From the NCBI RefSeq assembly GCF_003704095.1, contig NW_020844410.1:186001-250000 (forward strand): a stretch of DNA of 64,000 nucleotides, given 5' to 3'. This document shows positions 10,414-49,587 of the stretch, piece by piece. Below the pieces are notes generated by a model. It had not been told where the DNA came from and did not search any database. It saw nothing but the letters and a program-made list of their open reading frames with translations. The stretch comes from Pocillopora damicornis (lineage: Eukaryota). Within the stretch, counting starts at the first letter, position 1, and each line of letters starts with the position of its first letter. The translations under genes were made by a program, and so were the position numbers.

Positions 10414-11917
10414 CTGAAATTAAATTCAACGCATGGTTTATATCGATCTTTTGGCAGCACACGTTATACGAGTAACAGATCTAGAAAAGCGAAAGAAATT
10501 ATTCGCCAGCTCAATCGTTCGTTCGTCTTTCCTAATAGTGTAATCGGCAAAATAATATATCGCTTGACTAATAACAAGAGAGAATCCTCTCTTGCTGATA
10601 ACTTGACACTCGAAATTTTCATCCCAGACATCAGGTATCATTATTTCAAAATTCTTCACACGAATTAAAAAAAAGAAACATTGGGAAATCCTTCCATATA
10701 AGCCTACAATACTTGCTTGGGGATTGCCGAAGTGGCCATATCATTTTGCGGTAAGATTGCACAAGCAATTCTGATTATTCAGCAGAGAAGCGTCACCCAG
10801 TTGTTGTTCAGACGATTCTGATTAGTAAAATTTGAACAATTTAAGCCTGTTTAGCTGTCGAGTTAGCGTGGGCTTTACAATTTTGTGTGCGCTAAGTAAT
10901 GGCTAACCTACTTCCGTCCCAAGCCCTCTGTGGCATTACCACTCACTGCTTTAGTGCGGACTAATTCCCAGCTACAAGGGGTAAGACAAATTTAAGTTTT
11001 ATCCTCAAACCTGGACCTTTGTTAGGACAACTTGAGTTACAGAGGATTTGCATTTTCAAGGTTAACCAATCATAGAATAGAAATAAATAATAAATTGAAT
11101 AAACTATTTCCATTTCAGCGTCGTAATGCTGAGCACAGAAAAAATATTTTAAAGAATTATTATACGCTCCGTAGTTTAGAACTATGCCTAATTATAGCAC
11201 ACCACTAAAACTAAGACGCTTGTGAAAACTTTTTAGGCATAACAAATTAAACAAAGGGCTCTAAGGCAGGTGCAATCACTTGATTTTTATTGGCTGAAAA
11301 GTCTGTTTGTCTTAATTACAATAGCACAAACTGATGAGTTGAATTTAACATCAATTCAAAAGAATATTATACTTACCTCGATGTTTTCCGGCTTGACATG
11401 CATACGAGAGTTTCCTAAAGTTTTAGCCTGTCAGTTTTTGTATGATATCATGGTTTTCACACGCTAATGTAGATCGAAATAACCTTGGCACATCTTTAAC
11501 TGCTTTGGAATTGAAACAGAGCGCAAGTCTGTAAAGACAGGTGAGTAAAAACCATTGAAAACAGATATTCAATAACCAATTCTTTGTTTCACCTCTCAAA
11601 TGGAAGTTTTTACGTTCGTGTTTTTCATCTTAGGAAAGGTTATTACCGTTATCTGCATGTAATTTACGGAGAATCTACCCGTCTGCGGTAGACATGGTGT
11701 AATAACCACGAAAATACGTTATGATCAAAAAAGTGCATTTGAAAAAAACAGCTTACTTTGCTATCGGCTTCTTACCTCGTTAGTTTTTCCTTATGCGAAA
11801 AAACCTAACGGACCAAGTATAGTTGTTAATGGCCCAATCCATTTCTTTATGTTAACGCATTTTCTTTGGTGTGATTTTTTTTTCTCTTTTCTAGGTGGAC
11901 CATCGACCACATAAAAT

Positions 11918-14213
11918 ATGTCCATGCGATCAGTCCCAGACACAATAGCTATTACTTGTGCGACAGTCCTTTCCGTTCTTGTCATCGTTGTTATAACGGG
12001 AAACTCTACTGTTTGTACGATCATACTGAAATATCGCGATATGAGGTAAAATATTCTTCCTACAGTACTTTTGTGACTTTTCTGTCATTCTATCGATCGG
12101 AATATTTAATGATCCCCTACATCTCGCGTAAACAGTAACTTAGCGGGGTCTTATCATTGCCAACCACCTAGATTCCGGTTCAACAGTATTAGTACAGCAG
12201 TCTCAAAGATAAAAAATTCCCTATCCATTTTCGATTTAGAGTCACGATAAAATTAACTGTGATGAACTACTATTGGTGTATACTTTTCCTATGTTTTTCA
12301 GTTAGAGTCAGCTCATTCATCTTTTGGGAGAAAATAAATTTTATCTTAAAATGTTTTATTTGTGGGTTTGTTTGCTTCTTTATGATTCACAAGATCAATC
12401 CTCCATACGAACGTACTATTCGGAGTTTTTTAGACTAGATGAAATGGAAAAACAAAAAATTTGCTTTAAATCTATATCCTAAACGTTCCTATCGTGTTCA
12501 AGAGCATTATTGGTGCGGTTACTCCATTTGCTTTAAAATAAATGTAGCAGTGCACTTCTTTTTGTCTTTTAATCAATATTATCATCATCATCATTATTAT
12601 CTTTATTACTACATTTATTGCTATCATTATTTTTGTTTATTTTGTTGTTGTTGTTGTTGTTGTTGTTGTCATCATTATTTGTTGTTCATTCTTGCTCTGT
12701 CATCTTTTAATTACATTCTTGTGTTTACCTTCATTTTTGCATCCGCTAGAATTCCAATCAATTTCCTTCTTGTGAACCTGGCTGTTTCGGACATTATGAT
12801 TGCAATATTTCTTGCACCAGAGTACATCTTCAGTCTGATGTTTACCCATCCTAATGGAGTGACTGGGACAGTTCTATGCAGGCTACTGACTGGAGGAAAC
12901 TTTGCATGGGTTGGAGCATCTTCGTCTGTCTTCACCCTGGTTTTTATCGCCATTGAGCGATATTATGCAGTAATATATCCATATGATGAAAAGGGAAAGC
13001 TTACCCATACCAAACTTAAGGTAACAGATCCGCCTGGAGAAATCGATGTTGATTGATTTCTGTAAAATCAAGCTGAGTAATAAAAAAGCAACTAATCAGC
13101 ACGAAGGAAATGATAATACGGAGCGAATCAGCCGATTAGAGTGCGTTTGCATCAAATACGAACACCTGTTATAGAAAGTTTTCATTAAACATAACTCCCA
13201 GGATAAACGCCCACAATGTACTATAATTTACATACGTTTTGACTTCAATCTAAGAAAAAAATAGGCTGGGAATCGATCATCGTCGAACCATTAGTCGTTA
13301 CAAACAGGCCAAAGCCCTTTTTCTTTATTTCTTTTCTGCTCTAGGTAATTATTCCTTTCTGTTGGATTCTTGCATTTATCTTGAATGTACCAACTTTCTT
13401 GGCCTTGAACTTCAAGAACACCTTAGGTGACTGCGAGGAAGACTGGCCTCAGGAGTGGATGGGCATAGCCAATAGCATGAACTGGTTGGTGACTATGACC
13501 GTTCTTCCCATGACACTGATGACTGCGTTTTATTCGAGAATCGTGTGCACATTGTGGTTCACACCAACTGATGATAATCAACTTTCACATCGACAGAAGG
13601 TGAGAAGTTCTTGCAAATTCAACGCACAACTTTGTGGTCCATGGCCCGTCCTAAAAGGGTGCGATTCTTTGATTTGAGACATTACTAAGCCACAATTCTA
13701 TTTTCCACCACCCTTCCATATCAATAACAGGATATCGAGGTACATCAAATCCCGAAATTTTTCTACTGTTGAAAGCATTTATACATTTATTACTCGCTTT
13801 ATAACAAGTACCTTACTAAGGTTTTCGATCTCCTCACATAGGCTGTGATCAAGTTGCGGAAGCGGGTCACCGCGATGGTAATAACTGTCAGCTTCATATT
13901 TGGAGTCTGTTGGTTCACCGACTCGACATTTTATTTCTTGCATTTTATCAACTCTCCTTACTGTGATGTTGTTTTTTATATTACTACCATACTGATCCTA
14001 TTTAATTCTGCTGTCAACCCGTTTGTGTACGCCCTGATTAACCAAAGATTCCGCCAAAAGATCAAGACAATGTTCCGATGCAATTGCGTCGCTACAAACA
14101 GAATTGGCCCCACTATCCATTCCACCGGTAAAATAGTATTGCCGATCGTGGCTACCACTCTACCAAATCTTCAAGACAAAGTTAATGCAGGGGAAAGTGA
14201 TTTCAACAATTGA
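11918..14213 (+). CDS. GPCR-3: class A GPCR, about 341 aa, intact
   Basis: Exons 11918-12045, 12750-13020, 13345-13599, 13842-14213 in frame with GT-AG. Probable 5'UTR intron 11541-11894. Motifs NLAVSD, ERY, CWFTDS, NSAVNPFVY. Confidence 0.93.
12575..12690. repeat. Compound trinucleotide microsatellite (CAT/TAT/TGT) in intron 1 of GPCR-3
   Basis: Directly visible repeats; they explain the poly-H/Y/C in ORF 12439-13056. Confidence 0.9.
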
Positions 14214-14542
14214 CTGGAAAAATATCGACGAGAACGTTAAGTTTGCGAACTTCACTTGTTTAGTAAACAATTAGAAGTAAGTAGAGACAAGGTAACAATG
14301 GACTGCAATTAATCTGATAAATTCATGGTCTTCTAGAAATTGTATGTACATGGTGTAGTAACAGAGACTATCCTCTTTACTTTGTAAAGTATGCATTAAT
14401 AATAACGATAAAAGTAATAACTGGGGTAATGACAACGACGATNNNNNNNNNNNNNNNNNNNNNNNNNNNNNNNNNNNNNNNNNNNNNNNNNNNNNNNNNN
14501 NNNNNNNNNNNNNNNNNNNNNNNNNNNNNNNNNNNNNNNNNN

Positions 14543-17177
14543 TGATCTTTTGGCGGAATCTTTGGTTAACCAGGGCGTACACAAACGGGTTGACAGAGGA
14601 ATTGAATAGGATCAGTATGGTAGTTATAGCAAAAACGACATCACTGTAAGGAGAGTTGATAAAATGCAAGAAATAAAAGGTCGAGTCCGTAAACCAACAG
14701 ATTCCAAATATGATGCTGACAGTTATTACCATCGCGGTGACCCGCTTCCTCGACTTGATCACAGCCTATGTGAGGAGATCGAGAACCTCAGTAAGGTACT
14801 TGCTATAAAGCGAGTAATACATGGGCGCACGTTGAAATGGAATTTCTCTTCCAGTGTTCAACTTGATATCTCACGAGTGAACGTAGCGAACTGGAGAGAT
14901 ACCCGTGGAGAGAAATACCTTATCTTCAAGCAACCAAGTATTATTTTGTTTATCATATAAATACCATACGCCTTTACTGACAAGAACATTTGACAAAAGA
15001 CATTGGATCGAGAACTGATGAAAGCTTTACCATTTATTCATCAACCGGCCTGACAGAATGGCGCAAAATGCGAGTGATGCCTCAGTAACTGATTGGAAAA
15101 TTTTAAAGGTACGTCAGTAAAAAAGTTATCGTAATTATACACGTGTCAGTTCAGAGCTCAAAAGCTGAAGTTTCTAGCGTAAGCCCGCGCTGACGAAGGA
15201 CTAACGCTCAAAACGGCTTTGAAACTCTTTACGTGTCATCTCAGTTTATAATACCAAATTACCCCCTTAATTCGCGTTACAGGCGTTTTTTTTTTTTCGA
15301 CGACTGTCGGTTCGAGTTGAATTGTTATAGAGAAACTTGAAATCATATGTAGTGTTCTCATTCCATCACAACTTAACGCTAAAACATCAAGAAGTTGTTT
15401 AAATGCTTTCAACGGTGAAAACACTTCGGGATTTGATGTACCTGGTGGTGGCTGGTGGTGGATACAAGAGCTCTGTAATGTCTCAAATCAAAAAATCGCA
15501 CCTTTTAAAGTCGGGCCAAGGACTACAAAAGTTTTGCGTTTAATTTGCAAGAACTTCTCACCTTCTGTCGATGTGAAAGTTGATCATCATCAATTTGTGT
15601 GAACCACAGTGTGCACACGATTCTGGAATAAGCCGCAGTCATCAGTGTCATGGGAAGAAAGGTCATAGTCACCAACCACATCATGCTGTTGGCTTTGCCC
15701 ATCCACTCCTGTGGCCAGTCCTCCTCGCAGTCACCTAAGGTGTTCTTGAAGTTCATGACCAAGAAAATTGGTACATTCAAGGAAAATGCAAGAATCCAAC
15801 AGAAAGGAATAATTACCTAGAACAGAAAAAAATAAAGAAGAAGGTCTTTGGTCTGTTTATGACGACCAATGGTTCGAAGATAATCAATTTTCAGCCCACT
15901 TTCTTCTTAGACGGAAGTCAAAACGTATATAAATTATGATACATTGTGAGCGTTTGTCGTGGGATCATAGATGTATGATGAAAACTTTCCACAACTGGTG
16001 TTCGTATTTAATGCAAAGCGCACTCTAATTGAGTGATTCTCTCGGGGCTATTGTTTCCCTCATGCTGATTAGTTGTTTTTTTTTTCGAGTCAGCTTGATT
16101 TTACAGAAATTAATTAACAAGGACTTCTCCAGACAAATCTGTTACCTTAAGTTTGGTATTGGTAAGCTTTTTCTTTCCATCATATGGATATATTATTGCA
16201 TAATAGCGCTCAATGGCGATAAAAACCAGAGTGAAGACGGACGAAGATGCTCCAACCCAGGCAAAGTTTCCTCCAGNNNNNNNNNNNNNNNNNNNNNNNN
16301 NNNNNNNNNNNNNNNNNNNNNNNNNNNNNNNNNNNNNNNNNNNNNNNNNNNNNNNNNNNNNNNNNNNNNNNNNNNNNNNNNNNNNNNNNNNNNNNNNNNN
16401 NNNNNNNNNNNNNNNNNNNNNNNNNNNNNNNNNNNNNNNNNNNNNNNNNNNNNNNNNNNNNNNNNNNNNNNNNNNNNNNNNNNNNNNNNNNNNNNNNNNN
16501 NNNNNNNNNNNNNNNNNNNNNNNNNNNNNNNNNNNNNNNNNNNNNNNNNNNNNNNNNNNNNNNNNNNNNNNNNNNNNNTAACCGCACCAATAATGCTCTT
16601 GAACACGATAGGAACGTTTAAGATAAAGATTTAAAGCAAATTTTTTGTTTTTCCATTTCGTCTGGTGTAATTAACTCCGCATAGTAGGTTCCCAGTTTTG
16701 TGACATGGTGGATTGATCTTGTGCATCAAAAAGAAACAGAAGAAAATTTTAAGATCAAATTTATTTTCTCCCAAAAGATGAGCTGACACTAACTGAAACA
16801 ATATAAGAAAAGTATACACCAATAGTAGTTCATCACAGTTAATTTTATCATGACTCTGAATCGAAAATGGATAGGTAATTTTTTATCTTTTAGACTGCTG
16901 TATGAATACTGTTGAACCAGAATTTAGGTGGTTGACAACGATAAAACCCCACTAAGTTACTGTTTACGCGAGATGTCAGGGATCATGAAATATTCCGATC
17001 GATAGCATGACATAAAAGTCACAAAAGTACTGTAGGAAAAATGTTTTACCTCATATCGCGATATTTTAGCATGATCGTGCAAACAGTAAAGTTTCCCGTT
17101 ATAACAACGATGACAAGAACGGAAAGGACTGTCGCACAAGTAATAGCTATTGTGTCTGGGACTGATCGCATGGACAT
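14543..17177 (-). CDS. GPCR-4: inverted recent paralogue of GPCR-3, interrupted by gaps
   Basis: Exon 1 17177-17050; exon 2 visible 16276-16146 (rest in gap); exon 3 15816-15562; exon 4 from 14765 into gap 14443-14542. No stops in the visible parts. Confidence 0.85.
14822..15130. mobile_element. Interspersed repeat inserted in GPCR-4 intron 3
   Basis: Absent from the homologous 242-bp intron of GPCR-3; the GPCR-4 intron is 796 bp. Confidence 0.6.
15158..15267. mobile_element. Short degenerate copy of the palindromic hammerhead/Penelope-pLTR-like element
   Basis: AAAGCTGAAGTTTCTAGCGTAAGCCC...CTGACGAAGGACTAACGCTCAAAAC; the GAAA core is mutated to AAAA. Confidence 0.7.
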
Positions 17178-17969
17178 ATTTTATGATGGTCCACCTAGAA
17201 AAGCGAAAAAAAAAATAACACCAATGATAACAATAAAAGAAAGTGCGATGAAATATACAAATGGATTGGGCCGTTAATAACTACCTTTGGTCTGTTAGGT
17301 TTTTTTTAGCATAGGAAAAACTTAATAATGTAAGAAGTTGACAGCAAATTATTTGTTTTTTTCACATGCACGTTCTAGCTCATTTCGTAATTTCGCGGTT
17401 ATTTCTATATCTACTGCAGATTAAATTTAGACAACGGTGGTAACCTTTCCCAAGGTGATAAATATGAACGTAAAAAGTTCCAGATGAAACAAAGCATTAG
17501 TTATGGAACATCAGTTTTCAATGCCTTTGACTCACCTCGTCTGTACAGACTTCCGCTCTGTTTCAATTCCAAAGCAGGAAAGATGCGCTAAGGTTATTTC
17601 AAACCATAGCGTGTGAAAACCGTGATATCGTACAAAAACTGACAGACTAAGAATTAGGGAAACTCTCCTATCTAAGTCCAACTAGAAAACATCGAGGTAA
17701 GTGTAATATTCCTTTGAATTGACGTTAAATTCAACTCGTCAGTTTGTGCTATTGTTATTAAGACAAACAAACTTATCAGCCAATAAAAATAATCAAGTAA
17801 TTGCACCTGTTTTAGAACCCTTCTTTTAATTTGTTGTGTCAAAAAAGTTTCCACAAGCTTCTCAGTTTTAGCGGTGCTCTATAATTAGGCATAATTCTAA
17901 ACTGTTCAGCCTAACTGATAATTTTTTAAAAAATTTTCTCTACTCAGCATTACGTCGCTGAAATGGGAT

Positions 17970-19847: not shown

Positions 19848-20180
19848 TTATACTGGAAGTATGTGGATCTCAATACGAAGGTCAAAAGGTCAGTGATCTG
19901 TGCAGGCGTTAGCTTTGTGCGGTCTGCAAGGCTTGGGTCGTTCTCTAGTTTCTGCATTGCGGCCTGTACAGCGGCGTCGATAGGAACATTGGTAAACAAC
20001 GATTCTACGTCGAACATCATGTTTTATAAGATCACGCATGACCAGTCGACCTCGTCGCCTGAAGAAGACTAGCAGTATGTAGTCGAAACGTCACGATCTA
20101 CATCACACGTGACTACATCGTGAGACAAACGAAAAACTTAGCTTTTATTTTTATAATTTATCACCAGTGACAAAAAATTT
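19848..20180 (-). mobile_element. Penelope-like retroelement: 5'-truncated RT fragment with an inverted terminal-repeat segment
   Basis: Minus strand 20017-19848: FDVESLFTNVPIDAAVQAAMQKLENDPSLADRTKLTPAQITDLLTFVLRSTYFQY, typical of Penelope/Poseidon RT. Plus strand 20021-20180 carries a hammerhead motif. Confidence 0.85.
20052..20096 (+). ncRNA. Minimal type I hammerhead ribozyme (Penelope-type)
   Basis: UCGU-cgc-CUGAAGA-A-GACUA(GCAGUAUG)UAGUC-GAAA-C-GUC^ACGA. Core intact, 5-bp helix II, palindromic ACGU helix III, helix I UCGU/ACGA. Confidence 0.8.
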
Positions 20181-24662: not shown

Positions 24663-24756
24663 AACAGTACAATCAGCCGTCATCCTGAAGAGGAATACTG
24701 TGTAGACTTTAACGTGCATGCAAACAGACACAGAATCTTGGTATTTTAGTATTATC

Positions 24757-24990
24757 ATCTGAGTTGATAACGTAAATTGGCCGCTATAAAGAGTTTAAAG
24801 CCTGAAGTTTCGAGCGTTAGCCCTTCGTCACCGCGAAGGGCTGTGATGAAGGGCTAACGCTTGAAACGTTAGCTTTTAAATTCTTTACGGTGGGTAAATT
24901 ACGTTTTCTACTCCGTTGGTAATAATAAATTTCCTTGTTATAATCTCCCACCGACGCAGTACCACAGTTTTTTAGAAATTTATCCCCTTT
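24757..24990. mobile_element. Palindromic hammerhead/Penelope-pLTR-like element just 3' of GPCR-6
   Basis: About 70-bp inverted arms centred near 24835 (GTTTCGAGCGTTAGCCCTTCGTCA / TGATGAAGGGCTAACGCTTGAAAC), then the family tail CCCACCGACGCAGTACCACAG...CCCCTTTA. Confidence 0.85.
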
Positions 24991-26481
24991 AGACAGTTGT
25001 TCACTCATCAGTAACCTAAGCATAACGATTGGATATTTCGACAGGGCCGCGAATATCAACATTAACGTGATCATGAAAAATTCAGTTTTTCAATTCTCTT
25101 TTTCTGATTTTCGTTAAGTTAAACCCGGTCCAACTAATCGTGTTTTTCTGGTGTGAATGCGGCCTAATATTTATGAGTGTGATCAGTGTGCTTTAAATAA
25201 AGAAAAACAAAAAAAACAGACAAAAACAAAATAGTTTTTGAGGAATGTACAGGTTTCTGCTTTTTAGTGAACAAGAGTCTAATTGTTAAAAAAATATGTT
25301 TTTGTTGTTGCAGATTCGATCATTTCTTTGTAAACTTTATTGTAATTCTTAAGTTTTCGGAATATAATCTCCCATTAGTTAGTTCATCGCCGTAATAATC
25401 TGCGAGTATCGCGAGTAAACTTTCGCTGACATGCTTGCGATAAGCAGCTGTGCTATCGTTGGAAAACGATTTCCCACGGTTTAGGTCATAAGTGTCCTAA
25501 ATAGTGTCGATTGGTGTATGGCGCTGAAATAAAAAAATTAATATCAAGTGCTTTTGTAAATTTTTTTTTGATGTCCTTGCAATTATCATTGAAAGCAAAA
25601 GAGAAAAAGAAACGTTGGACAACTCTATTTTGTTGATTCTATGCAGATGGTTTCAATTTCTTCAGACAAAATTTAAATTTTGAGCGGAAATGTGTGATCT
25701 GGTTTTGATAATTTTTTTTAATACAGAGTACTCTTCTAAACACAGAAATTTCAATAGCAAGGCAATTCTATTTCTAAAAAATTAAAGCAATACCTTTTTA
25801 TTGCGCTTTTTTTTCAGTGGAAGTGAAACGGGCAATATTGCACTGTAATCCTTGTGTGCCATATATGACGTTTGTATCCCACTTTTCATGACTAGTAAGC
25901 GAATACAAAGTAAACTCTGTTGACAGGTACAGGAAAACTCTAATCCATAAGTGGAGAATAATTTCCCAAAGTTTTCCTTAATAATCTTGGTTAGTGAAGA
26001 GAATTAGAATATTGAGTATTAAGGTTAATGATTTGTTCAATTCATCTCAAAATGTTTTTCATATTAGTGGTAAAAAGTTGTTAGCAATGATATCATTTGC
26101 TGGTATAAGGATATAGAGCAGGGAATTCTTTTTGACAATTAACGGTGGTTTTTTTCTTTTTTCTTGGCACGTCCGCAGGTGCCCCGTTAACTCTATGGGT
26201 CGGGATTAGCGATTCGATTTTTTTCCTGCCACAAATGTTTATTTCTTAACGGAAGCGTGCGGGTTTACATCAAACGCAAACTTTTCGTGACATATTTACA
26301 CTACATGCTTTTCATGTGTCTACATAAAAGAACACTTTGTGATTAAGTCTCAATTTCACGCGAAAATGATTATAACTTCTCTGTATTTAAACTCGGATAG
26401 AGTCAATTTCTGAAGCTCATTTGGTTTATAAAAAAAAAAAGAAAATAAGTTTAGGAGACGTGAGCCTCTTTTGACAAGAAG

Positions 26482-38460: not shown

Positions 38461-39320
38461 ATGGTGGTCTGCGAGGTTTCTTCTGTTGTGATTACCACTA
38501 TGCTCTTAATCCTAGTCATTATGGACATCACAGGCAATACACTTGTTTGTTTGATTATCAAGGGAAATCGTCAAATGAGGTATGGCTCAGGGATTGATAG
38601 AGTAATAACCTAGATACATTTTCACTATACTGGTGAAGTTCGATCGTGACAAAGTTGTTTGTAGATTCCTTTCATTGCGATCAGACTTCTTTCACATTGA
38701 TTCATCGTTGTTATTATTTTGTTTACCATAACTCTAAAGGACTCCTATAAATTATCTGCTTATGAACCTGGCTATCTCCGATGTTCTCTTCGCGATTTTT
38801 ATCGCACTAAAGCTTATCGTCAGCTTAAGTTTAAGTCACCCAGATGGAGTAACGGGTTCTGTCCTCTGCAAGCTCGCGACTGGTGGAAATCTGGCATGGA
38901 TTTTTGGAGTTTCTTCAGCCGTTATTTTGGTTGTGATTGCTGTCGAAAGATATTATTCTGTGGTGTATCCACAGGTTCCAAATAGAAAACTTACTAAGCG
39001 TAAAGTAAAGGTGAGTTATGGCATAAATTGGTCGGGGGATGGTGATAGCTCCACAGCCTTACTGACCATTCCCAGTAGGTAATTCAGTGTTAACAACTGG
39101 GTTGAAAACGTAAATTAGCCACCGTCAGAGCGATAGGGCTAACGCTCGAAACGTCAGCTTTTTTACCCTTTACGGTGGCTAATTTAACAACTGGGTTGAA
39201 AACGTAAATTAGCCATCGTCGGAGCGATAGGGCTAACGCTCGAAACGTCAGCTTTTTTACCCTTTACGGTGGCTAATTTACGTTTTCAACCCAGTTGTTA
39301 ACACTAAATTACCTGCTATA

Positions 39321-39365
<45 letters not shown>

Positions 39366-40904
39366 TTTATTCATTCCCAGTAGGGTTTATTACAACATAT
39401 TTGTTCTCATGCTTTTCATTGTTATACTATCGTTCCACGTTCCTTGAAAGCTTTGTAACGCCACTCGATAACAAAAGAAACGACTGTGCTTTCACAGGCT
39501 TTGAAAGCTGATCACGTTTATTTAAGGAATGGTCTTGAGGAGATAAATTAGAATACGTCTAAAATCGTGATAAAAAGTATTATTTTTGCATTTTGGCGTC
39601 GATAGGGCATAGTGACAGAAAGATAGAATTTGGCTACGAGATTGCCTGCAGAGAAAGTGACGCATTCAACGAGAAACGACGAAATATTTTTACCTCCTCT
39701 CGCTTTACATCGCACCAGTTTCTAAACACATTGACTCACACATCTTCCTGTTATTTGATATATTTCAGATTACCGTTTTTGGTATTTGGATGTTCTCGGT
39801 GATTTTTAACTTACCTCTCCTTCTTGTCGGTACCTATGAGAAGTAACATACCAAAACCACAAACACCACTGTGTATAAAGCTGGCCCCATAAGTGGATGT
39901 CCTCAACATATGGTTTTGCATGATTGTTGCTGTCCGTTGCGGCTGTTGGTTTGATGATTTCTCTTTACACTCAAGTTGTGTTCCACATGTGGTTCAAACC
40001 AAGTGATGGCTTTCCTTTAAGCTGTAAACAACAAGTGCGTGCTTAAGTCAACACTTCTCTCACTTAATTATCCATGGCATGAAACAGTTTTTTGTCGAGT
40101 GCCGAAAGTAGTGCAGGATCAAAGCTACTTCAGAATAATATTTGTAGGTTTCTTCTCATTTAATATCAAGAATTCATCACCCAAGTTCCTCTCAGAGTAT
40201 ACTAGTATGAATAACTTTTCGAATCGAGGTTCTTAAAAATCAATTGCCCATTAGTTATTGCCCTGGCCTAGACAAGAGTTCAGAACTGTTTTCCTTCCTC
40301 TATGCCATTACCTTTCATGGAATTGAAGATTATAAAATTTGTTTTAGCATGACAAGGAGGGATTTCGCGTCATAAAGTCATGTAAATTTAGGGGATTACG
40401 GCAGTTGATGATCACGTCCAATCTGCAGACTAAAGGAACTTAAATGGAAATCGTCGGGCAAAAGCGGAGTTTATTTAGATTAGGAACACTCCCATCGATC
40501 ACATGTTCATTTGCTTTGACTTTTACTGAGAAAGAAGCCTTGGTGAGAAATCAAGGACTTGATTCTGCATTTACCAGAATTTCCTTTTTTTTTTTTATTA
40601 ATTACAGGGTGTGTTGAGGGTTCGGAAACGGGTCACCTTAATGGTAATAACAGTCAGTGTCATTTTTGTAATTTGCTGGGGAGCAGAGTCAATTGAATAC
40701 ATCCCAAGGAATATGACCTCCCTCAACATCTGCTTTGTGCACATTGTCATTGTTGACATGATGGTGTTGTTCAATGCGGCCGTCAACCCTTTCGTTTATA
40801 CCCTAATGAGCCATCAGTTCAGACAAAAAATCAGGGGAGTGATCTGCTGCCAGAGTGCTTCTGTAGCACCCAAGCCAAAGCTGCTATGGAAAATAAGGGT
40901 ATAG
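38461..40904 (+). pseudogene. GPCR-9: pseudogenised tandem paralogue of GPCR-8
   Basis: Exons 38461-38579, 38740-39010, 39769-40034, 40608-40904. Exon 3 is 266 bp (frameshift) with stops TAA 39844, TAA 39876 and TGA 39921. Confidence 0.88.
39080..39371. mobile_element. Palindromic hammerhead/Penelope-pLTR-like element with internal tandem duplication and 13-bp TSD
   Basis: Flanked by CATTCCCAGTAGG (39067-39079 and 39372-39384). A unit of about 94 bp is repeated (39090-39277). Family tail CCCACCGACGCAGCACCACAGTTTCTTTAGAAACTTACCCCTTT. Confidence 0.88.
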
Positions 40905-45079: not shown

Positions 45080-45476
45080 TTTCTCGAGATGAGCTGTGAG
45101 ACAATTCAACCTGGTAGGAAAAAGCCACAGAAACACTTTTGATCTACAAGTGAATATATCGTCAGGGTATAGAAGGTCAGCACATTGGGATAAGCGTACC
45201 GCGATTCTGATACGTAGTTTAAAAAAACATAGATTAGAAGTAATTGATAGATTGCCAATGTATAAATCATTCTTTATTCATGCTTTTCTGACTTGATAAT
45301 TTCTCAGAAAATTATCATTAATTAGATTAATCATGATTTTCTGAAAAATTATCAAATCAGTTTCCAAATGAAAATCAAATCCCTTGAAAATTCGTATCCA
45401 AAGACATGAATACCAAAATGTTTAGCGTGATTCTATAATAATGGCTTAACTAAGAGTCTCTCGATGTCACTTTACT

Positions 45477-46146: not shown

Positions 46147-46818
46147 TTTAAATGGTATTGATTCATGACCCTTGAACTCTGACGTTGGAGCCATATGGAA
46201 ACAGCTTAAGTTTGATGAGGCCATTAATTAAAGAGAGCATCACTTGAATTTTCAAAAAGACGCGCACTGGATTTGAGTTAAGATAGCAACCAGCCGGATT
46301 CTCTGTGACCTTTGTGTTCAGACAGATACAAGACAGAGAAAGGGAGAGAAAAAAATAAAAACAACAACTATAAGAGCTGAAACATTGGTGTTTAGCGGAA
46401 GATGAAAAATTTGAAAAGTGAAATTTTCAAGAAAGTGCACTTTGACAAGTTCCGTGTTATATTTAAATTTATTAGTCTGGCGTGAGGAAATCCATTAACA
46501 CTTAAGAACGCTTTCATTTCCCCTGGGTCATGATCAGTACCCTCTAAATATTCAAGACATATAAACTCGTGATTAAAATAGTAAATAGCCTTACCTCAGC
46601 TTAATGAACTGGATGAATGCTCTTTTACTGCATCATAAGAAACTGTCCGCTTGAGTCTATAAATGTACTCTATAGCCCTTAAATGTCGCTCTTAATAAGC
46701 TCCTGTTAAAATACCCGCATACCACATAGATTCTCTATGTCACATTCAGAAAGGTAAATCCAACAGATCGGTGGTAATAAGGTCCTAAATTCGATAGGAG
46801 GCAAACTTTGTTAAACTT

Positions 46819-46832
46819 GAATAAAGGGGCTA

Positions 46833-46866
<34 letters not shown>

Positions 46867-47011
46867 AAGAGTATAGCAGGTAATTTAGTGTTAACATCTG
46901 AGTTGAAAACGTAAATTGGACACCATAAAGAGTAAAAGAAAAAAAGACGTTTCGAACGTTAGCCCTTCGTCTATCGCTCTGACGAAGGGCTAACGCTCGA
47001 AACGTCAGCTT
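46819..47011. mobile_element. Palindromic hammerhead/Penelope-pLTR-like element with 12-bp TSD
   Basis: Full family unit on the minus strand plus a short inverted arm. Flanked by TTTGTTAAACTT (46807-46818) and TTTGTTGAACTT (47012-47023). Confidence 0.88.
46976..47009 (+). ncRNA. Minimal type I hammerhead ribozyme motif, intact core
   Basis: GCU-CUGACGA-A-GGGC(UAAC)GCUC-GAAA-C-GUC^AGC. Helix I GCU/AGC, 4-bp helix II with one G.U pair, palindromic ACGU helix III. Confidence 0.75.
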
Positions 47012-49587
47012 TTTGTTGAACTTACATGTATTGTAAGAGTGCTTGGCATGCACGCATTTATCCCTCTGTATGAAAGAGTAATTACGACACAGAATTTGGC
47101 CTAAATAGTGGGATAAAAGCGCTCTTAACCCCAAAATATGGATGTAAACCACAGTCAAGTAATGGGGAATTCGTCGTGTTATCGTTCGTCATGCTGTACG
47201 TGTAAACCCACCTTAGAAAACCATTGTCCAAAAATCATTTTTTGCCCGAGGACAAGAATTTCAGCCGTCGTTGATGCTAAGATTCTGACTTAGATGGGCA
47301 GCCCAGTCTTGCTATGACTCAGAACATGTTCACGAACTTCGAGAAACTACCAGTTTGTGGGAGTTATTGTAAAAGTCACGTTTTCTATATCAGATATCGG
47401 GTGTTTGGCAGTAGACGTCAAATAAATAAAGGTTTATTCAGATGTTAACATCAAGATAACTGTCAAGGTAATGTTTCACTATGTCAATATTTCGAAATAT
47501 TACGGAAATGCGATGACCTTGGGGTGTTGGTAAGTGATCAAGACAATTTTGGCATCGGTAACTCATCCTTTATTCCTCTATGTGACAAGTAACCATTCTT
47601 TACCTTTTTAAGAGAATGCACAGTTCAAAATTAATTTCAACTTTAATTTGGTAAGCCGATTAGACGAAGCACTTCAAATGTTCTCGTTCAAATAGTATTC
47701 TTATTAGTGCTTTGGTGAAGAAGGTTTCAAAATTTGATGCAAGCTACATTCATGTTGTTGAAGTGGCTCGGTTGCAACCACAGGCTTGGTTGCATTTTCT
47801 GATAATATAAGGGCTATTAATGTTTATCCCATTCGTTTCAGTGGTGCTGTAGCAGTACTTGCGCAGCAAATCACTCCCCTAATCTTTTCTCTGAATTGAT
47901 GGTCCAGTAAGGTAAACACTGACTTTTTTACACTGTACTTTTTTGAAACACTTTAACTTACCAGAGCACATTACGCTCGCTGACGTTTAGCCCACGGGCG
48001 TGCTATTATTAGCAGTGCGGCACGAGCGGCGAGGCTCACGAGATTCGAGCGTGCGAGAGGTGTTGTTGAGGTCTAGAACATGAAAGAGAGCATGCATGCG
48101 AGGATGCCATTATTTTCCGAAAACAGTGCATAAAAACATTATTCTACCAATAATTAGCATAAATAAGGACCTAAATTTTAACTACATCATTGTGGTAGTG
48201 ATGGGAAAAGTCTCGTTCTTTACGTAGAGGAAGTCAAATGATTGATGAAGTTCTTAAATTAAGATAACTGTTAAAGATGCGTCAGGATTAAAATTGCATG
48301 AAATAACAGATATACGATCGCTAGTAGTCCAGTTTCTTTCCTCATGCTGTTATTAGATGTTCAAATCAAGTTTGACGTCGTCCACTCGTGCTTTTTTTTA
48401 TCTTTATTCGTCAATGTAAAAGTTATTTATTCTATCAAGTGTTTCAACGTGTCTTTTATTTTCAAATATTTAATGGTTATCCGGTCATAGCCACCCATTG
48501 TTTGTATATTGTATGCAAACAATGATATGAATGAGCTGCTATGAAAAGATATCTATATAATGTATATCTCTCATTTAATAGAGTGGACTCGTTATATGCC
48601 CATGAGTTTGTCAATAAATGATAAAGAGGAGGACAATTAGGAACAGTGGAGAACGCTTGGCTTTTGCCTGGTGCTCAACCATTGGTATGAAAATGTGTTT
48701 AATTTGCTTGTGAATGGAAACTTAAAATCATATGAAAGGATAAGCATCAGGGCTCACTTTGAAAATGAAACTAACGGTAATTTGGAAATGGCCAAATGGT
48801 CAGAGTTCCCTGTCTTCCATTCCTTTCTCCGTTTTTCTCTTTTTCTTTTTTTCTCTCTTTTTTTCCTGCGTTTTGTTTTTTAGACTTGTTTTCATCTGCC
48901 TTTTTGGGAATTTTTTTTTAATTATAAAACGATATTTGTACTAAGCTCAACTTACAGTAAATATGACTGTTAACAACTTACCTTATTTCACGTTGTTGAC
49001 AAACTTCAGCTTATACTTGTTAAAATATTTTGGCTAAACAACATTAACATCGACCATTCGCATGAAAAAAATTCAGCTTGATGTAAGGCCTGCGAATGCG
49101 ATGATTATGCTATTTCAAAAGCTGCTGCAAGCCGGAATTACGTCCGTTACCGCGAATAATGAATTCTGCGTATTTTCGGCTATTGATCTTTTCTTCGGGT
49201 GATATGTATATTTTTTCTAGCCTGACATTTTGATTGATCTCATAATCGATAGTGGAATTGCTGTACCACAGTATGTAAAGGTAAAAATATACTTTACTGG
49301 TAATATTGAAGCTCTAACACTACTCAAGTTTTGTTCAGTTTTGTTCAGCTTTCTTTCTGGAAAAAGATAGCTGGTTGGGCACACATGATTTTCAATTTGA
49401 CTCCTTCGCATTCCATGATCCATACCGACTGTAAACAAAGATTCCGCGCTCAAATATAGCTTTGGCTCAGTTTTCTAGTGCATGTAGTCTTCTTCCTCTA
49501 AAGAGAATGATTGACCAACTTAAAAACAAGGGAGAACTAAATTACTTTAATAGCTTCTGAGCCATGTGTCATCAGCTGCTTAAGAAA

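What the first reader, a model, noticed from the sequence alone, without database searches (positions are those of the whole stretch)
46807..47023. Short mobile palindrome carrying an intact minimal hammerhead ribozyme
Seen: CUGACGA...GAAAC-GUC core with pairable helices I and II, an inverted degenerate twin on the other strand, and a 12-bp flanking duplication. Three more family members lie at 15158, 24757 and 39080. Known: Penelope-like pLTRs and metazoan non-LTR retrozymes carry minimal hammerheads whose palindromic helix III (ACGU) favours cleavage as dimers. Inference: a high-copy, non-coding, ribozyme-bearing retroelement family mobilised in trans by Penelope RT. All four copies fold back at the ribozyme itself, so the antisense arm could mask the ribozyme and produce dsRNA.
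Basis: partly seen in the sequence, partly recalled or inferred. Interest (0 to 1): 0.7.

Follow-up and report, generated by a model that had tools for sequence, protein, structure and literature searches.

The report
Penelope stumps marking RNA ends
This short mirror-image sequence is one of many hundreds of stumps of a known type of jumping gene (a Penelope-like element), likely built afresh at each landing site, and where the stumps end likely marks the start of the element's RNA and, in a few copies, the spot where its small self-cutting RNA cut.

Summary
The motif is real: an intact minimal hammerhead (46976-47009), an antisense twin lacking the core start, and an 11/12-bp target duplication. 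The three other copies are family members, but none keeps an intact core. It is not shown to be a stand-alone non-coding family. Longer copies run into a reverse transcriptase, zinc finger and GIY-YIG frame, so it is the terminal repeat (pLTR) of a Neptune/Nematis-type Penelope-like element. Of 84 copies picked by their 3' end, 60 have an inverted arm. Ends are fixed near +120 and +65 from the cut site, and 64 reach -42 to -30, about 31 nt below a TATA box seen in long copies. 34 inversion junctions give 30 different strings, so each palindrome was likely made de novo by priming both target strands. Eight of 406 arms (7 loci) start exactly at the predicted cut, against 1 and 0-1 at neighbouring bases: a hint of cleavage in vivo. 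The architecture is published, and this scan noted the same pattern in several other genomes. Covariation is absent, no full-length copy was found, and no RNA end was measured.

The parts
46807..46818 (.). left target-site duplication (12 bp)
   Evidence: 11/12 match to 47012-47023; modal family length 13-14 bp
46819..46971 (-). long arm: pLTR of the Penelope-like element, from -25 to about +123 (distal fixed end); its hammerhead is truncated and lacks C3-U4
   Evidence: 90% identical to the pLTR of the coding copy L055
46972..46972 (.). one-base head-to-head junction
   Evidence: sequence; junction classes
46973..47011 (+). short arm, -33 to +5 (to +8 counting T microhomology with the target); unusually short, most end at +62 to +76
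46976..47009 (+). intact minimal type I hammerhead motif, predicted cut after 47006
   Evidence: sequence; matches the features listed in PMC4209133; activity untested
47012..47023 (.). right target-site duplication
39067..39384 (+). young family copy with perfect 13-bp duplication (39067-39079 / 39372-39384) and an internal tandem duplication; sense arms start at -20, so no complete core; lies just past a GPCR exon
24740..24991 (+). older family copy, both arms, both cores mutated (C3 to G on each)
15160..15263 (+). old decayed family copy, core broken, no distal end

Best explanation
The palindrome is two back-to-back pieces of the terminal repeat of a Neptune/Nematis-type Penelope-like retrotransposon, likely made during one insertion when both strands of a staggered cut primed reverse transcription on an RNA that likely starts about 34 bases before the hammerhead cut site. 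Shown: the repeat is the 3' end of a coding element; 3' ends are fixed near +120 and +65; 5' ends pile up at -34 to -32; junctions vary; target duplications are 13-14 bp. Inferred: (1) a CCAAT-TATA promoter in the 3' UTR starts the RNA near -34; (2) the enzyme nicks both strands and starts copying internally at about +120 on one strand and +65 on the other, as shown in vitro for the anole element (PMC11167929); (3) both cDNAs run off the RNA 5' end and are joined there by trimming, microhomology or short inserts; (4) the template is mostly uncleaved, but about 2% of arms copy an RNA already cut by the ribozyme; (5) the stump has no promoter and is likely dead on arrival, its one intact ribozyme locked by the antisense arm if transcribed.
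For: Long copies L055, L092, L098 continue upstream into RT (PF00078, E 1e-6), a CX4CXXC linker and GIY-YIG (E 3e-4 to 3e-3; both below the curated cut-offs). Full-length relatives of 759-904 aa are 58-71% identical (top 10 hits). Sample chosen by the distal 28-mer: 90 loci from the first 91 of 684 matches, 84 kept after dropping 6 with N gaps or a locus edge. 60 of 84 are inverted; 50 of 60 inverted arms end at +62..+76; the furthest 5' reach is -42..-30 in 64 of 84 and in 37 of 49 young copies; 5 of 84 extend beyond -45. Target duplications of 10 bp or more in 35 of 49 young copies, 24 of them 13-14 bp. TATAAA at -65 and CCAAT at -91, i.e. 31 and 57 nt before -34, present in 25 and 30 of 39 aligned long copies. 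34 junction loci, 30 strings; 33 have an arm reaching -31 or further; in 18 the short arm is complete while the long arm is cut, which fold-back of the long cDNA alone cannot give. The tail can sit on either arm (L094, L100: main copy ends at +70, inverted arm at +122). Arms starting exactly at +1: 8 junction arms in 7 loci among 11 matches; starting at 0: 1 of 5; at +2: 0 or 1 of 4; binomial p 0.003-0.008; denominator 406 arms.
Against: No RNA 5' end was measured; only assembled contigs were available. No intact full-length copy was found; the longest open frame among fetched loci is 432 aa. The sequence after +128 is not shared among 30 loci, and the ORF N-terminus is not encoded in +1..+128, unlike the rotifer and anole elements, so the template's continuation is unknown. 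No compensatory base changes; majority letters differ between old and young copies at 0 of 34 ribozyme positions against 9 of 119 downstream, not significant (p 0.21). The +1 class is small, position +3 was not tested, and an alternative stem (-27..-22 with -3..+2) could pause the enzyme near there. The junction set is partly biased toward copies like the window's. The TSD scan had no shuffled control. Two arms of one insertion often share variants (22 shared, 43 unshared in 24 pairs), which fits a single template, fold-back or later arm-to-arm conversion alike. No untemplated G (cap mark) was seen at 9 non-inverted junctions.
Confidence: 0.75

Rival explanations
1. The palindrome is itself a non-autonomous element: a hairpin RNA transcribed from palindromic masters and copied whole in trans.
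For: Hundreds of near-identical short copies; short forms far outnumber long ones; arms of one insertion share variants; three junction strings recur 2-3 times.
Against: 30 different junctions in 34 loci, either arm may be the complete one; 24 of 84 copies lack the inverted arm; the stumps lack the TATA region; short-arm ends vary and abut the target duplication.
Confidence: 0.07
2. The inverted arm arises by fold-back of a single cDNA (self-priming), and the pile-up at -34 is a structural stop of the enzyme at the ribozyme rather than the RNA start.
For: Self-priming was proposed for rotifer elements (PMC3846280, passages); shared variants between arms; 6 of 34 junctions have a complete long arm and cut short arm; the ribozyme region has a stable alternative stem.
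Against: 18 of 34 junctions have the short arm longer at the 5' end than the long arm; +65 is also the 3' end of main copies (L059, L094); a structural stop is expected at the 3' base of a stem, not after it has been copied; the stop sits at TATA spacing.
Confidence: 0.1
3. The short RNA is a separate small transcript from the promoter of broken, ORF-less long copies and is mobilised in trans by enzyme from a rare intact element; the palindrome is still made at insertion. This differs from the best explanation only in the source of the RNA.
For: Many broken long copies keep TATA and CCAAT; no copy links +128 to the ORF start; rotifer pLTRs sufficed for insertion in trans (PMC3846280).
Against: The anole enzyme needs RNA beyond its start sites (PMC11167929), which inserted copies would not carry; the assembly is fragmented, so tandem masters may be collapsed.
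Confidence: 0.08

Closest known systems
Endonuclease-positive Penelope-like element insertions with inverted 5'-truncated pLTR, tail and TSD (PMC3846280; PMC8557442; passages read)
   Same: Head-to-head inverted pLTR, tail on one arm only, TSD, TATA box in the pLTR, hammerhead in the pLTR, RT-zinc finger-GIY-YIG order.
   Different: Most copies here are only 150-260 bp with no ORF; the tail is about 55-60 nt rather than 30-40; the ORF start is not encoded in the pLTR plus tail.
Poseidon element of Anolis carolinensis in vitro (PMC11167929; main text parts 1-2 of 4 read)
   Same: Two internal start sites that define the tail; both target strands cut and extended; uncleaved RNA is the main template.
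   Different: Different clade; that study found no RNA ends at the ribozyme site, whereas 7 loci here begin exactly at it.
Minimal hammerheads of metazoan PLEs (PMC4209133; parts 1-2 of 4 read)
   Same: Extra base between A9 and helix II, G10.1-C11.1 pair, palindromic helix III, mostly single motifs tied to truncated PLEs, some pairs on opposite strands.
   Different: Helix II (4 bp) and helix I (3 bp) are shorter than in the schistosome families described; activity of this motif is untested.
Non-LTR retrozymes of corals and other animals (PMC7229834, passages; bioRxiv 10.64898/2026.07.22.740005, part 1 of 5)
   Same: Short, non-coding, type I hammerhead, long TSD, related to PLE pLTRs.
   Different: Retrozymes are head-to-tail tandem units (with canonical ribozymes and circular RNA in Acropora); this is a head-to-head stump with a minimal ribozyme.

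Membership tests
EN+ Penelope-like element | Single ORF with RT followed by C-terminal GIY-YIG, joined to this repeat | tested here: met
   L055, L092, L098; (Pfam hits below curated cut-offs; relative P0001 passes GIY-YIG)
EN+ Penelope-like element | pLTR carrying a hammerhead at the element's end | tested here: met
   ribozyme about 95 nt after the stop codon in long copies
EN+ Penelope-like element | Inverted 5'-truncated arm, optional tail, TSD | tested here: met
   60 of 84 inverted; ends at about +65 and +120; TSD 13-14 bp
EN+ Penelope-like element | Partial tandem: pLTR directly upstream of a full ORF, ORF start inside pLTR/tail | tested here: inconclusive
   no such locus among those fetched; tail not alignable to the ORF start; assembly fragmented
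Neptune/Nematis clades | CX2-5CXXC zinc finger between RT and EN | tested here: met
   CX4CXXC in L055, L092, L098 translations; definition from PMC8557442
Neptune/Nematis clades | RT phylogeny places it in one clade | not tested
   no named reference sequences were on hand; no tree built
Minimal type I hammerhead | CUGANGA, extra base, G10.1-C11.1, GAAA, NUH, palindromic helix III | tested here: met
   features; no Rfam hit
Minimal type I hammerhead | Covariation in helices among copies | tested here: not met
   no compensatory pairs in 74 arms; changes look like decay, mostly CpG
Minimal type I hammerhead | Self-cleavage, as dimer or protein-assisted | not testable with these tools
   indirect only: 7 loci start at +1
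Non-LTR retrozyme | Head-to-tail tandem units each with a complete hammerhead | tested here: not met
   direct extra pieces in 6 of 90 loci, none a clean tandem array of whole units
Non-LTR retrozyme | Abundant circular RNA of unit length | not testable with these tools
   contigs only

The most novel reading that the evidence does not exclude
The stumps are a fossil record of the element's RNA ends: the main class maps a TATA-driven start 34 nt before the cut, and the minor class proves that a 34-nt minimal hammerhead, nearly inactive in vitro, cleaves in the living germ line, with both cut and uncut RNA used in a twin-primed insertion by an enzyme dimer.
Probability: 0.5. Interest if true: 0.55.

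Novelty: new member of a known kind. Interest (0 to 1): 0.35.

Why it matters
How Penelope-like elements build their inverted ends, and whether their minimal hammerheads cut in vivo, are stated as open in the papers read (PMC8557442, PMC4209133, PMC11167929). A family with hundreds of young 150-260 bp insertions gives countable end points for both questions and defines a short template for an in vitro test. As a genomic feature the single copy is likely inert.

Tried and rejected
Rfam scan of the window: no hammerhead model reached E<=1. RNA contigs of four studies hold both the ORF end and the repeat, and summed depth rises 2- to 22-fold at about -36; contigs cannot show starts and passively transcribed stumps give the same step, so this is not used as evidence. 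Laying contigs on the ORF start did not reveal what lies upstream. I suspected a second hammerhead at the ORF 5' end; translation showed it is simply the protein's N-terminus: rejected. A 3' splice site at -34 was considered; no AG precedes it and no common upstream exon appears in junctions: rejected. The first junction count double-counted orientations and the second mis-scored the short arm; one search is the corrected one. Sequence look-up of earlier scan notes found nothing. Paper searches for a prior report of twin priming in PLEs or of copies starting at the cleavage site returned nothing on topic; Repbase and subscription journals were not searchable, and Lünse et al. 2016/2017 on dimeric PLE hammerheads could not be read (seen only as cited in PMC6765202). 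Supplements were not opened; those of PMC4209133 and PMC7229834 may already list this motif family.

Full report
Observation. Positions are numbered from the predicted scissile C (window 47006 = 0). The plus strand holds a complete minimal type I hammerhead: helix I of 3 bp, CUGACGA, one extra A, a 4-bp helix II, GAAA, and a self-complementary ACGU in place of helix III. These are the features listed for metazoan Penelope-like element (PLE) ribozymes in PMC4209133 (parts 1-2 of 4 read). Rfam does not detect it. The minus strand carries a longer arm, from -25 to about +123, whose ribozyme lacks C3-U4. An 11/12-bp duplication flanks the unit. The strand folds far better than shuffles (z -6.2). 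In that fold the core is 89% paired to the antisense arm, and even the isolated motif prefers an inactive stem (-12.3 against -7.0 kcal/mol). The other three copies are homologous and invert between -19 and -33, but none keeps a whole core. The window is a cluster of rhodopsin-family GPCR genes; the copy lies between two of them.

What it belongs to. The genome has 345 exact matches to the ribozyme 36-mer and 684 to a 28-mer near the far end, controls 0. Some copies continue upstream, in the same sense, through a 90-nt untranslated stretch into a reading frame with GIY-YIG, a CX4CXXC linker and RT. Full-length relatives exist in public assemblies. By the linker it is of Neptune/Nematis type (definition in PMC8557442, passages); no tree was built. 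No intact full-length copy turned up among the loci fetched. Run labels suggest a coral host.

Anatomy of the family. I took 90 loci from the first 91 of the 684 far-end matches, a choice blind to the 5' end, and kept 84 (6 dropped for N gaps or locus edge, one of them a long copy). 60 of 84 have an inverted arm, and 50 of those 60 end at +62..+76; main arms end at about +116..+128. The furthest 5' reach is -42..-30 in 64 of 84, with the mode at -34..-32; 5 of 84 go beyond -45. In old copies the alignment end could reflect decay, but the 49 young copies show the same (37 of 49). Target duplications of 10 bp or more occur in 35 of 49 young copies, mostly 13-14 bp; this scan had no shuffled control. 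In long copies TATAAA starts 31 nt and CCAAT 57 nt before -34 (25 and 30 of 39 copies). That spacing is what a polymerase II start at -34 would give (established knowledge; inference here). pLTR promoters are known (PMC3846280, PMC2377424, PMC6765202; passages).

How the palindrome forms. 34 distinct inverted loci give 30 junction strings. In 18 the short arm is complete and the long arm cut, as in the window copy; in 6 the reverse; in 9 both are complete, mostly with an insert; 1 has neither (the set leans toward copies like the window's). A copied master palindrome would give few junctions, and fold-back of the long cDNA cannot add bases it lacks. Two primed cDNAs explain all classes, and the anole enzyme extends both strands from two internal sites in vitro (PMC11167929, parts 1-2 of 4). 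Against a clean reading, the arms often share variants (22 shared, 43 unshared in 24 pairs), which also fits fold-back or later conversion.

Does the ribozyme cut? About 98% of arms were copied through the cut site, so the usual template is uncut. Of 406 arms with an exact +1..+33 match, 11 are not preceded by the scissile C: 8 arms in 7 loci are true junctions starting at +1, 2 are point mutants, 1 has an insertion at the site. The same test at 0 gave 1 junction of 5, and at +2 gave 0 or 1 of 4; p = 0.003-0.008 for a site named in advance. The numbers are small, +3 was not tested, and a pause at the alternative stem is a live alternative.

Open point. Nothing is shared after +128 in 30 loci (30 of 34 matches), and the protein's N-terminus is not encoded in the repeat. 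So it is unknown whether the short template is the front of a full mRNA or a small transcript from broken copies used in trans.

Comparison and verdict. It works like, and is a member of, endonuclease-positive PLEs; it fails the tandem-unit test for retrozymes (PMC7229834, passages; bioRxiv 10.64898/2026.07.22.740005, part 1 of 5). The architecture is known. I found no paper in the held library reporting copies that start at the cleavage site or twin priming in PLEs, but the library is partial. This scan has noted the same pattern, with similar readings, in other genomes (8 notes); I reached my reading before seeing them, and they are not independent proof. New member of a known kind; interest 0.35.

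Noticed in passing
window 20059-20093 (+): A second, unrelated minimal-hammerhead-like motif: CUGAAGA, extra A, 5-bp helix II, GAAAC, GUC; helix I pairing is offset. Possibly another PLE family.
   Followed up: no
L044 (G000:C203, about 212400-212590): About 11 tandem copies of a 19-nt piece (about -36..-18) at the inversion junction; a 5-nt word occurs at both ends of the piece. Could be telomerase-like re-alignment at the template end or later slippage.
   Followed up: no
L191, L196, L200: Copies starting at +1 carry a short repeat of their own first 4-6 bases just before the junction.
   Followed up: partly
window 1-56000: Cluster of rhodopsin-family GPCR genes with direct and inverted duplications, including a nested inverted pair at about 11300-14100 / 14500-17800; some exons carry stops.
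   Followed up: partly
window 39090-39228: Internal tandem duplication within the 39074 copy that repeats the inversion junction.
   Followed up: partly
run X3, record 20, laid on L280:1499-1705: An RNA contig joins the ORF's first 200 bases to the repeat just past the ribozyme, perhaps an internally deleted element.
   Followed up: no
window 45294-45354: Very AT-rich 61-nt hairpin just upstream of a GPCR gene; only a chance-level Rfam match.
   Followed up: no
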